Below are positions 47,423 through 47,847 of a DNA stretch of 57,210 nt, piece by piece. A program made the position numbers and the translations under genes. Source of the DNA: Pseudomonadota bacterium. GTDB taxonomy: Bacteria > Myxococcota_A > Polyangia > Haliangiales > Haliangiaceae. Location of the stretch: contig JACTMV010000564.1 of NCBI GenBank assembly GCA_014584455.1, forward strand, positions 1 through 57,210. Direction: 5' to 3'. The notes under the pieces were generated by a model. It was not told the origin of the DNA and did not search any database. It saw only the letters and a program-made list of their open reading frames with translations. How positions within the stretch are numbered: the first letter of the stretch is position 1; each line of letters opens with the position of its first letter.

Positions 47423-47497
47423 GCCGCCGTAGACCAACCGGAAGGAGTCACTGGTCTCAGAAGCCAGGCAGTGTCGGTTCGACCCCGACCGGCGGCA
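47423..47497 (+). tRNA. class-I (short variable arm) tRNA-like with Leu anticodon CAG
   Basis: 7/7 acceptor GCCGCCG/CGGCGGC, D-arm GACC-AACCGGAAGG-AGTC, loop CTCAGAA, T-loop TTCGACC; paralog of 47510 and 47774 genes. Confidence 0.5.
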
Positions 47498-47509
47498 CCC
47501 TGCGGACGC

Positions 47510-47582
47510 GCCCCCGTGGACCAACGGCAGAGTCAGCGGGCTCAAACCCCGCGCGGTGCGGGTTCGACTCCCGCCGGGGGCA
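47510..47582 (+). tRNA. class-I tRNA-like with Leu anticodon CAA
   Basis: 7/7 acceptor GCCCCCG/CGGGGGC, same D-arm family, perfect anticodon stem, loop CTCAAAC, T-loop TTCGACT. Confidence 0.5.
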
Positions 47583-47597
47583 CGATCTTCGTCTCAT

Positions 47598-47673
47598 GCG
47601 TCGCTCGCCTTCTGGTGAAGGCACCGGCTTCCAACCCCGGCCCAGCAGGGTTCGATCCCCTGGCGGCGTGCCA
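47598..47673 (+). tRNA. tRNA-Trp(CCA), CCA encoded
   Basis: Acceptor with two G-U, D-stem GCCT/AGGC, loop TTCCAAC, T-loop TTCGATC, 3' GTGCCA. Confidence 0.6.
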
Positions 47674-47679
47674 CGTGAT

Positions 47680-47752
47680 CTGGGTGTAGCTCAGGAGTGA
47701 GAGCGCGCGGTCGGGGACCGCGAGGGCGCTGGTGCGATTCCAGTCACTCAGA
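47680..47752 (+). tRNA. tRNA-like Pro(GGG); T-loop TGCGATT (G55), C33
   Basis: TA-GCTC-AGGAGTGA-GAGC D-arm, perfect anticodon stem, loop TCGGGGA. Confidence 0.55.
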
Positions 47753-47773
47753 CCCGCGGACCGCGAGGTCCAC

Positions 47774-47847
47774 GCCGCCGTAGACCAACGGCAGGAGTCA
47801 GTGGTTCGAGAAGCCACGCAGTGCCGGTTCGAATCCGGCCGGCGGCA
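47774..47847 (+). tRNA. class-I tRNA-like with Leu anticodon GAG (C33)
   Basis: Near-identical scaffold to the 47423 gene: GCCGCCG-TA-GACC-AACGGCAGG-AGTC..., loop TCGAGAA, T-loop TTCGAAT. Confidence 0.5.

What the first reader, a model, noticed from the sequence alone, without database searches (positions are those of the whole stretch)
47423..47847. Three class-I (short variable arm) tRNA-like paralogs carrying leucine anticodons CAG, CAA and GAG
All known tRNA-Leu are class II with a long variable arm. These three share one scaffold (7-bp GC acceptor, D-arm GACC-AACGG..-AGTC, 5-nt variable loop, discriminator A73) and differ mainly in the anticodon. No class-II Leu gene is present in the array. 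Either they are a streamlined Leu set (E. coli LeuRS relies mainly on A73 and tertiary structure, not on the long arm), or they are a recoding/decoy set.
Basis: partly seen in the sequence, partly recalled or inferred. Interest (0 to 1): 0.6.

Follow-up and report, generated by a model that had tools for sequence, protein, structure and literature searches.

The report
Short-arm leucine tRNAs in tRNA array

Summary
Observation confirmed. Positions 47423-47497, 47510-47582 and 47774-47847 (+) are cloverleaf tRNAs with a 5-nt variable loop, A73, and anticodons CAG, CAA and GAG. No long-arm Leu gene lies in the window.

The premise "all known tRNA-Leu are class II" is wrong. Streptomyces coelicolor tRNALeu(CAA) is type I and is leucylated by its LeuRS (PMC6614811). 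Homologues are already annotated as tRNA-Leu in Mycobacterium and Corynebacterium phages.

A covariance model built only from chromosomal type I Leu genes scores the three at 86, 74 and 74 bits. The next best tRNA in the array scores 48.

The window is not a phage. It is a 75% GC bacterial chromosome carrying a long tRNA array (about 35 tRNAs, all 20 amino acids) with a Ro60 homologue and an HNH endonuclease inside. The trio covers 99.8% of the Leu codons used here and recurs in about 15 related arrays.

Best reading: ordinary leucine-accepting type I tRNALeu, spread to CUN anticodons by duplication and single-base anticodon change. Charging was not tested. Side observation: a third of the array's tRNAs, including Leu(GAG), carry C33.

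The parts
47423..47497 (+). Type I tRNA-Leu(CAG). It has a 5-nt variable loop GCAGU, A73 and anticodon loop CUCAGAA. A73 is followed by CCC.
   Evidence: ARAGORN. Rfam tRNA 48.4 bits. Type I Leu model R1 74.3 bits. The minimum-energy fold is the cloverleaf.
47510..47582 (+). Type I tRNA-Leu(CAA). It has a 5-nt variable loop GCGGU, A73 and anticodon loop CUCAAAC.
   Evidence: ARAGORN. Rfam 51.4 bits. R1 86.1 bits, the top hit. It is 80-84% identical to chromosomal actinobacterial type I tRNA-Leu.
47774..47847 (+). Type I tRNA-Leu(GAG). It has a 5-nt variable loop GCAGU, A73 and anticodon loop UCGAGAA, so C33 replaces the usual U33.
   Evidence: ARAGORN. Rfam 47.5 bits. R1 73.5 bits. C33 is shared by the GAG orthologues in L250, L251, L253, L256, L276, L283 and L299.
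43918..50102 (+). Long tRNA gene array (tRNA array unit / L-array). It holds about 35 tRNA genes, all on the + strand, covering all 20 amino acids. Their anticodons mostly read G/C-ending codons.
   Evidence: 29 of the 30 genes called by default ARAGORN lie in the array. Four more appear at relaxed thresholds or with Rfam/R1.
45032..46627 (+). Ro60/Rsr homologue (TROVE + vWA domains) embedded in the array.
   Evidence: Pfam vWA_Ro60 6e-68 and TROVE 8e-43. The ATG at 45032 follows a GGAGG. At least 200 relatives exist in metagenome contigs, most of the longer ones sitting inside similar arrays.
47944..48498 (+). HNH endonuclease directly downstream of tRNA-Leu(GAG).
   Evidence: Pfam HNH_5 8e-16 and HNH 2e-14. 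It is conserved at the same place in 29 related arrays. HNH genes are the commonest protein genes in described tRNA arrays (PMC5966550; PMC8421152).
47598..47755 (+). tRNA-Trp(CCA) and tRNA-Pro(GGG, C33), interleaved between the second and third Leu genes.
   Evidence: ARAGORN.
47172..47396 (+). Three tRNAs missed by default ARAGORN, just upstream of the Leu genes: Met(CAT) with a C1.A72 mismatch and encoded CCA, Ile(GAT, C33) and His(GUG, C33).
   Evidence: Relaxed ARAGORN. Rfam tRNA 38.3 bits for Ile. R1 hits of 33.3, 31.6 and 36.7 bits. The acceptor of the Met gene was read by eye.

Best explanation
The three genes are genuine type I (short-variable-loop) tRNA-Leu isoacceptors. They belong to a scaffold family that is the normal chromosomal form of some Leu isoacceptors in Actinomycetota and is common in phage, plasmid and chromosomal tRNA arrays.

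Here they sit in a long tRNA array, with a Ro60 homologue and an HNH endonuclease inside it, in a 75% GC bacterial chromosome. LeuRS does not read the anticodon. So a type I tRNALeu could be duplicated and its anticodon changed by single bases (CAA to CAG to GAG) without losing leucine identity. In this array lineage such copies took the place of the long-arm CUN readers that more distant arrays still carry.

The trio is most likely charged with leucine and decodes CUG, UUG and CUC/CUU, which is practically every Leu codon the genome uses.

Shown: the structure, the family membership, conservation with compensatory changes, the fit to codon usage, and the published leucylation of a type I tRNALeu in Streptomyces.

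Inferred: that this host's LeuRS charges them, that they are expressed, and the direction of the class II to class I replacement.
For: 1. Structure and anticodons.

2. Family membership.
- Every parsed hit (120 genomic, 123 viral) has A73, which the pattern did not require, and nearly all have a full 7-bp acceptor. Only Leu anticodons occur, never GAA or AAA, which would be Phe.
- 109 of the 120 genomic loci hold a single tRNA in large chromosomal contigs of named Actinomycetota.

3. Model R1, built from 71 of those chromosomal genes, scores the window genes 86.1, 74.3 and 73.5 bits. The next tRNA, Asn, scores 47.6. With anticodons masked, the 12 nearest neighbours of each among 1045 tRNAs are all short (74-77 nt) tRNA-Leu genes.

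4. Selection on structure.
- Chromosomal set: 99.2% of cells paired, 336 cells changed on both sides, 0 of 500 shuffles as high.
- Array-borne set of 51 hits, 47 with Leu anticodons: 98.6% paired, 19 of 20 pairs with changes on both sides.
- In that set U8, C13 and A14 are invariant; A15 is in 50/51, U48 in 48/51 and A73 in 49/51.

5. The same short cag/caa/gag trio, upstream of the same HNH gene, recurs in arrays whose Ro60 is only 63-82% identical.

6. Leu is 10.3% of codons in the window's genes: CUG 53.9%, CUC 44.2%, UUG 1.5%, the others 0.5% together. The trio therefore covers 99.8%. Without it an otherwise complete 20-amino-acid array would lack its commonest amino acid.

7. Biochemistry from PMC6614811.
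- ScoLeuRS leucylates type I ScotRNALeu(CAA).
- A 5-nt variable loop and U8-A14 matter for charging; the loop sequence does not.
- The gene could not be knocked out.

8. LeuRS, SerRS and AlaRS do not read the anticodon (PMC11028032 abstract). The three genes lack G3.U70 (Ala), a long arm (Ser) and G-1/C73 (His). By the established identity rules this leaves LeuRS.
Against: - Charging was not measured and the host is unidentified. The TonB-dependent receptor and OmpA-like genes suggest a diderm, not an actinobacterium.
- Not every LeuRS accepts type I tRNALeu. E. coli LeuRS and another LeuRS tested there (SpurLeuRS) did not.
- CAG and GAG on this scaffold are rare in chromosomes: 2 and 0 of 120.
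- The GAG gene has C33 and a potential U32-A38 pair, which could impair decoding.
- Thermodynamic folding alone does not separate the genes from shuffled sequence (z = -1.8, -0.8, -2.2), and the CAA gene's minimum-energy fold is not the cloverleaf.
- Expression is unknown. Some long arrays are reported to be poorly transcribed except under translational stress (PMC8421152).
- The S. coelicolor sequence itself could not be compared, apart from its variable loop ACAGC.
Confidence: 0.8

Rival explanations
1. They are leucine tRNAs, but the short-arm form (and C33 in the GAG copy) was selected because it escapes tRNA-targeting toxins or nucleases that recognise host tRNAs. The array would then be a resistant spare tRNA set used under attack or translational stress. 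This is compatible with the main explanation and adds a reason for the scaffold swap.
For: - tRNA arrays in phages and mycobacteria are proposed to be anti-defence sets with altered anticodon loops (PMC10264068; PMC12803027 abstract).
- The Anabaena L-array is induced when translation is impaired (PMC8421152).
- More distant Ro60-linked arrays still have long-arm cag/gag genes, so a replacement happened within this lineage.
- C33 occurs in 10 of 30 array tRNAs here, 0 of 171 tRNAs in chromosomal loci and 32 of 838 in viral loci, and it is isoacceptor-specific.
- Corynebacterium phage Lederberg carries a single type I tRNA-Leu(CAA) between a gene annotated as 'tRNA splicing ligase' and an HNH gene.
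Against: - No toxin or nuclease that targets the long arm of tRNA-Leu is identified here.
- Type I tRNALeu is also the ordinary chromosomal form in many actinobacteria, so the scaffold needs no defence explanation.
- No defence or toxin gene was found next to the array in the window.
Confidence: 0.3
2. They are supernumerary, silent or decaying copies carried along by a mobile array and make no contribution to translation.
For: - Long arrays add redundant tRNA genes and were reported as poorly transcribed in several cases (PMC8421152).
- Several tRNAs in this array have odd features: C33, a reduced D arm in the Met gene, and four genes below ARAGORN's default threshold.
- There are recent tandem duplications of the Asp and Arg genes.
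Against: - Stems are kept by compensatory changes across arrays whose Ro60 differs by up to about 40%.
- Identity-related positions (U8, A14, A15, U48, A73) are nearly invariant.
- The anticodon set matches codon usage exactly.
- Gene order is conserved.
Confidence: 0.1
3. They are recoding or decoy molecules. Either another synthetase charges them, so that Leu codons are read as another amino acid, or they are uncharged tRNA-like ligands, for example for the neighbouring Ro60 protein.
For: - Ro60 homologues bind tRNA-like Y RNAs that are encoded next to them (PMC4201824), and a Ro60 gene lies inside the array.
- Charging by the host LeuRS is untested.
Against: - The genes have complete cloverleaves with acceptor stems and A73, and they fit the type I Leu model 26 bits or more better than any other tRNA in the array does.
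- They lack the identity elements of the other anticodon-blind synthetases (no G3.U70, no long arm).
- No Y RNA family matched at E<=1.
- Misreading 10% of all codons would be lethal.
Confidence: 0.04

Closest known systems
Streptomyces coelicolor tRNALeu(CAA), the type I tRNALeu characterised by Fan et al., NAR 2019 (PMC6614811)
   Same: It is a bacterial Leu isoacceptor with a 5-nt variable loop, U8-A14, G18G19 and A73. Its variable loop ACAGC resembles GCAGU and GCGGU here. It is leucylated by a normal bacterial LeuRS.
   Different: In S. coelicolor only the CAA isoacceptor is type I and the CUN readers keep the long arm. Here CAG and GAG are also type I, no long-arm Leu is in the array, and position 48 is U rather than C. 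The host here is probably not an actinobacterium, so LeuRS compatibility is unproven.
Short tRNA-Leu genes already annotated in actinobacteriophages: Mycobacterium phage Lukilu and other Bixzunavirus (GAG 74 nt, CAA 75 nt), Corynebacterium phage Lederberg (CAA 77 nt); unannotated in Thermobifida phage P318 (TAG)
   Same: They share the scaffold (GCCCC.G UA .CCC AAYGGCAG AGG. A ..., 5-nt variable loop, A73). They lie in tRNA arrays or next to an HNH endonuclease. They were found by blastn with the window genes as query.
   Different: Bixzunavirus keeps a long-arm tRNA-Leu(CAG) beside the two short ones. Identity to the window genes is only about 75-82%. Those are phage genomes, whereas this is a chromosomal array.
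Long tRNA gene arrays: 'tRNA array units' of Mycobacterium (PMC5966550) and 'L-arrays' (PMC8421152)
   Same: They hold dozens of tRNA genes on one strand, a near-complete amino-acid set and an embedded HNH homing endonuclease. They are spread among chromosomes, plasmids and phages. A short-loop tRNALeu(TAG) was noted in one such cluster (PMC6582537).
   Different: An embedded Ro60 homologue and the high frequency of C33 were not mentioned in the passages I read. In its closest relatives this array appears to be inherited at a fixed chromosomal site (synteny with L299).
Animal mitochondrial tRNALeu
   Same: It is a type I tRNALeu with A73. Human mitochondrial LeuRS charges the Streptomyces type I tRNA.
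   Different: It is unrelated in sequence, has degenerate D and T loops, and ScoLeuRS does not charge it.

Membership tests
Type I (short-variable-loop) bacterial tRNALeu | Cloverleaf with a 4-5-nt variable loop and no extra arm. | tested here: met
   The variable loops are 5 nt: GCAGU, GCGGU and GCAGU.
Type I (short-variable-loop) bacterial tRNALeu | A leucine anticodon (NAG or YAA) in a 7-nt loop. | tested here: met
   The anticodons are CAG, CAA and GAG. The GAG gene has C33 instead of U33.
Type I (short-variable-loop) bacterial tRNALeu | The shared core: A73, U8-A14, A15 with U/C48, G18G19, and a 3-bp D stem with a C13.A22 mismatch. | tested here: met
   All are present in the three genes. 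They are nearly invariant in 51 array-borne hits. In the 71 chromosomal relatives A14, A15, C13 and A73 are invariant, but U48 was fixed by the search pattern.
Type I (short-variable-loop) bacterial tRNALeu | Scores as a member with a model trained on independent members, clearly above other isotypes. | tested here: met
   R1 gives 86.1, 74.3 and 73.5 bits against 47.6 or less for all other tRNAs of the array. The anticodon-masked nearest neighbours are all short tRNA-Leu genes. tRNAscan-SE isotype models could not be run.
Type I (short-variable-loop) bacterial tRNALeu | Aminoacylated with leucine by the host's LeuRS. | not testable with these tools
   Published only for S. coelicolor. The host and its LeuRS are not in the window.
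Canonical class II bacterial tRNALeu | A long variable arm (more than 10 nt, with a stem). | tested here: not met
   The loops are 5 nt. Identity to class II Leu genes of related arrays and phages is only 56-68%.
Long tRNA gene array (tRNA array unit / L-array) | 20 or more tRNA genes at high density on one strand, with a near-complete amino-acid set. | tested here: met
   About 35 genes lie in 6.2 kb, all on the + strand, covering 20 amino acids.
Long tRNA gene array (tRNA array unit / L-array) | An associated HNH homing endonuclease. | tested here: met
   The HNH gene is at 47944-48498 and is conserved in 29 related arrays. Literature.
Long tRNA gene array (tRNA array unit / L-array) | Spread by horizontal transfer. 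| tested here: inconclusive
   Related arrays occur in many metagenome contigs of 53-73% GC. However, the flanks are syntenic in L299, L256 and L251, and there is no marked GC break beyond what tRNA genes themselves cause.
Bacterial Y RNA (YrlA-type Ro60 ligand) | A Ro60-binding stem plus a partial tRNA-like domain, without a normal acceptor/anticodon cloverleaf. | tested here: not met
   The genes are full cloverleaves. No Y RNA family matched at E<=1 in 43-51 kb.

The most novel reading that the evidence does not exclude
In this Ro60-linked family of chromosomal tRNA arrays the tRNAs may have been remodelled as a set. Long-arm CUN leucine tRNAs were replaced by short-arm copies. The near-universal U33 was replaced by C33 in a fixed subset of isoacceptors, mostly G34 readers of four-codon boxes plus Ile. 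The array would then encode a parallel tRNA pool that host-directed toxins and nucleases, or Ro60-based RNA surveillance, can tell apart from the cell's own pool.
Probability: 0.2. Interest if true: 0.65.

Novelty: new member of a known kind. Interest (0 to 1): 0.25.

Why it matters
For the finding as stated, the value is mainly corrective. Short-arm tRNA-Leu is not an anomaly in high-GC bacteria and their mobile elements, so it should not be flagged as one in future scans.

Two points go a little beyond what I found described.
- In tRNA arrays the type I scaffold has spread from UUR/UAG anticodons, its usual chromosomal range, to CAG and GAG. This gives complete Leu sets with no long arm. It is a natural example of free anticodon shifting in an isotype whose synthetase ignores the anticodon. 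It also implies that the LeuRS of hosts outside Actinomycetota may accept type I substrates.
- The context (a Ro60 homologue inside the array, and isoacceptor-specific C33) is unexplained and may deserve its own study.

Tried and rejected
- **Assumed at first that the window was an actinobacteriophage; rejected.**
  - megablast against phages found only a 38-bp HNH match.
  - The window is 75% GC.
  - It carries chromosomal genes: TonB-dependent receptor, OmpA/MotB-like, MscS, Ser/Thr kinases, a SpoIIE-domain (PP2C-type) phosphatase, peptidase M24.
- **Tried to name the organism; failed.**
  - Exact-protein look-ups of HlyIII and Ro60 returned only short Logan contigs with no names.
  - The plasmid collection gave nothing useful.
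- **My first choice of long ORFs for Pfam was mostly in the wrong frame**, as expected in 75% GC DNA. I redid the gene calls by GC3.
- **Thermodynamic folding did not discriminate**. I relied on covariation instead.
- **The full S. coelicolor tRNALeu(CAA) sequence was not available.** No supplement is held. Only its variable loop is given in the text, and its C48 explains why Streptomyces was missed by my pattern, which required U48.
- **Considered descent of the CAG and GAG genes from long-arm Leu genes by deletion of the arm; rejected.** Their acceptor, D arm and T arm match type I genes (76-85%), not class II genes (56-63%).
- **Considered reading the GAG gene's loop in another register** (anticodon CGA with U33). 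Rejected, because it needs a 9-nt loop and breaks a closing pair.
- **Searched for literature on C33 in bacterial or phage tRNAs.** Nothing relevant was found.

Full report
**1.

ARAGORN finds 30 tRNA genes in the window; 29 of them lie in one array at 43.9-50.1 kb, all on the + strand. They include tRNA-Leu(cag) at 47423-47499, tRNA-Leu(caa) at 47510-47583 and tRNA-Leu(gag) at 47774-47848. Rfam's general tRNA model scores them 48.4, 51.4 and 47.5 bits, against a gathering score of 29.

The sequence and the drawn structures show, for each gene:
- a 7-bp G+C-rich acceptor stem, U8 and A14;
- a D stem GAC/GUC with a C13.A22 mismatch, and a D loop containing G18G19;
- a 5-bp anticodon stem and a 5-nt variable loop (GCAGU, GCGGU, GCAGU);
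- a normal T arm and A73.

No long-arm Leu gene lies in the window. The genes are 79-85% identical outside the anticodon rather than near-identical. The GAG gene has C33.

**2. The premise is wrong: short-arm tRNA-Leu is known and common.**

Published work:
- S. coelicolor has four long-arm Leu isoacceptors and one type I isoacceptor, tRNALeu(CAA), with the 5-nt loop ACAGC (Fan et al., PMC6614811).
- Its single LeuRS leucylates both kinds. A 5-nt loop length and U8-A14 matter for charging; the loop sequence does not.
- The gene could not be deleted. E. coli LeuRS does not charge the type I tRNA.
- A short-loop tRNALeu(TAG) was noted in a Mycobacterium mucogenicum tRNA cluster (Behra et al., PMC6582537).
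- In M. tuberculosis only three tRNALeu species (Leu-2, -3 and -5) are singled out as having long variable loops (PMC11541572).

blastn of the region against GenBank phages hit genes already annotated as tRNA-Leu:
- Mycobacterium phage Lukilu and 17 other Bixzunavirus-type phages, which carry an 86-nt CAG gene followed by a 74-nt GAG and a 75-nt CAA gene;
- Corynebacterium phage Lederberg, with a 77-nt CAA gene between a gene annotated as 'tRNA splicing ligase' and an HNH gene;
- an unannotated 74-nt TAG gene in Thermobifida phage P318.

**3. How widespread the scaffold is.**

I scanned with a pattern that fixes the D-loop motif GGCAGAG, a 7-nt loop YU-NAR-R, and a short distance from there to the T loop.
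- All parsed hits have A73, and almost all a perfect 7-bp acceptor. Neither feature was in the pattern.
- Only Leu anticodons occur, never GAA or AAA:

| Collection | TAA | CAA | TAG | CAG | GAG |
|---|---|---|---|---|---|
| Genomes | 70 | 31 | 17 | 2 | 0 |
| Viral contigs | 87 | 17 | 13 | 3 | 3 |

- 110 of the 120 genomic hits are Actinomycetota, including Mycobacterium, Nocardia, Rhodococcus, Corynebacterium, Amycolatopsis, Arthrobacter and Nocardioides.
- The rest are Planctomycetota and single members of other phyla.
- 109 of the 120 loci carry that one tRNA alone in 8 kb, so these are ordinary chromosomal genes.
- Several viral arrays have Leu sets made only of short genes: L187 (five anticodons), L192 and L226 (caa/cag/gag, as here) and L232.

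**4. Membership test.**

From 71 distinct chromosomal genes I made alignment A1 and covariance model R1. The alignment shows strong covariation: 99.2% of cells paired, 336 cells changed on both sides, and 0 of 500 shuffles as high.

R1 scored every position of the array. It gives 86.1 bits to the CAA gene, 74.3 to CAG and 73.5 to GAG. The next best tRNA, Asn, gets 47.6 and the rest less. CAG and GAG are almost absent from the training set, so the anticodon cannot explain their scores.

With anticodons masked, the 12 nearest neighbours of each gene among 1045 tRNAs are all short (74-77 nt) tRNA-Leu genes, at 75-85% identity. The best non-Leu tRNA reaches 69-75% and the best long-arm Leu 62-68%.

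**5. Context.**

The window is not a phage.
- It has 75% GC.
- It encodes a TonB-dependent receptor, an OmpA/MotB-like protein, MscS, several Ser/Thr kinases (one with a PEGA domain), a SpoIIE-domain (PP2C-type) phosphatase, an Hsp70-DUF3731 protein and peptidase M24.
- This looks like the chromosome of a high-GC diderm. Myxococcota is a guess only.

The array covers all 20 amino acids once four genes missed by default ARAGORN are added: Met, Ile, His and a second Ser. Two protein genes lie inside it:
- a Ro60/TROVE homologue at 45032-46627;
- an HNH endonuclease at 47944-48498.

With about 35 tRNA genes and an embedded HNH gene, the array fits the described 'tRNA array units' and 'L-arrays' (PMC5966550; PMC8421152).

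**6. Orthologues.**

The Ro60 protein has at least 200 relatives in metagenome contigs. Most of the longer loci carry the same kind of array, with up to 29 tRNAs per locus. Gene order is conserved:

Tyr-Gln-Phe-Lys-Gly-Thr | Ro60 | Asn-Glu-Arg ... Leu-Leu-Leu | HNH | Ser ...

L299 also shares both flanks with the window.
- About 15 arrays have short cag/caa/gag genes with the same GCCGCCG-UA-GACC...AGUC scaffold.
- More distant arrays (L288-L290, L297, L300, L301, L304) have long-arm cag and/or gag genes (85-89 nt). In L289 and L290 these sit beside a short caa gene.
- R1 hits in these loci, 47 of them with Leu anticodons, keep 98.6% of pairs, and 19 of 20 pairs change on both sides.
- U8, C13, A14, A15, U48 and A73 are nearly invariant.

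So the genes are under selection as tRNAs.

**7. Mechanism.**

LeuRS ignores the anticodon (PMC11028032 abstract), so CAA to CAG and CAG to GAG are single-base steps that keep identity. The similarity pattern supports origin by duplication of a type I gene, not by deletion of the arm from a class II gene.

In the window's genes Leu is 10.3% of codons: CUG 53.9%, CUC 44.2% and UUG 1.5%. The trio therefore reads 99.8% of them.

The other anticodon-blind synthetases are excluded by their established identity rules: there is no G3.U70 (Ala) and no long arm (Ser). I therefore take them to be working leucine tRNAs, with confidence 0.8. The open step is charging by this host's LeuRS, because not all LeuRS enzymes accept type I substrates.

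**8. Rivals.**

- An anti-defence reading, in which the array is a spare set that toxins cannot recognise, is compatible with the main explanation and plausible. I found no direct evidence for it.
- Silent or decaying copies are unlikely given the covariation.
- Recoding or decoy roles are very unlikely.

**9. Verdict.**

The claim of novelty is not: these are new members of a known kind. The most interesting things seen lie beside the finding, namely C33 in a fixed subset of isoacceptors and the Ro60-linked array family.

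Noticed in passing
window 43918-50102; related loci L248-L315: About a third of the array's tRNAs have C at position 33 instead of the near-universal U33. Here these are Gly-tcc, Thr-cgt, Asn-gtt, Ile-gat, His-gtg, Pro-ggg, Leu-gag, Pro-cgg, Val-gac, Ala-ggc and Thr-ggt. Across related Ro60-linked arrays it is isoacceptor-specific. High: Pro-ggg 12/12, Ala-ggc 6/6, Gly-gcc 20/22, Val-gac 10/15, Ile-gat 13/20. Zero: Leu-cag 0/22, Asn-gtt 0/38, Lys-ctt 0/29, Asp-gtc 0/17. It was absent from 171 tRNAs in the bacterial-genome loci fetched by the pattern scan. 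I found no literature on it.
   Followed up: partly
window 45032-46627: A Ro60/Rsr homologue (TROVE + vWA) lies inside the tRNA array. At least 200 relatives exist in metagenome contigs, and most of the longer ones are flanked by similar arrays with conserved gene order. No Y RNA family matched nearby.
   Followed up: partly
window 50163-52646: Directly downstream of the array is a protein with major-vault-protein domains (MVP shoulder 5e-19, Vault_3 3e-9). It is also present, at 90% identity, at the same place in L299.
   Followed up: no
window 47172-47245: A tRNA-Met(CAT) missed by default ARAGORN. It has a C1.A72 mismatch, as bacterial initiator tRNAs do, A rather than U at position 8, a reduced D arm and an encoded CCA. 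Short (70-73 nt) Met(cat) genes occur in related arrays.
   Followed up: partly
window 47247-47396 and 48716-48801: Ile(GAT), His(GUG) and a second, long-arm Ser tRNA are also missed at ARAGORN's default threshold. Relaxed ARAGORN reads the Ser anticodon as ACU; by eye it could be GCU with C33.
   Followed up: partly
window 44597-44804 and 49397-49465: An 87-nt tandem repeat (2.4 copies, 98% matches) containing G+C-rich hairpins lies between the two Gly genes. An 11-nt repeat (6.3 copies) lies between the Asp and Ala genes. The Asp and Arg genes are recent tandem duplicates.
   Followed up: no
window 33120-33213: The 94-nt 'tRNA-Val' that default ARAGORN calls outside the array is probably a false positive. 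Rfam finds no tRNA there even at E<=1.
   Followed up: yes
window 1-57210: The window is a 75% GC bacterial chromosome segment, not a phage. Its genes include a TonB-dependent receptor, OmpA/MotB-like, MscS, Ser/Thr kinases and a SpoIIE-domain (PP2C-type) phosphatase. The organism could not be named. Identical proteins occur only in short contigs from many sequencing runs.
   Followed up: partly
L002 1503-1579 (Corynebacterium phage Lederberg); L003 1501-1574 (Thermobifida phage P318): Lederberg carries a single short tRNA-Leu(CAA) between a gene annotated as 'tRNA splicing ligase' and an HNH endonuclease. P318 has an unannotated short tRNA-Leu(TAG) upstream of the small terminase gene.
   Followed up: no
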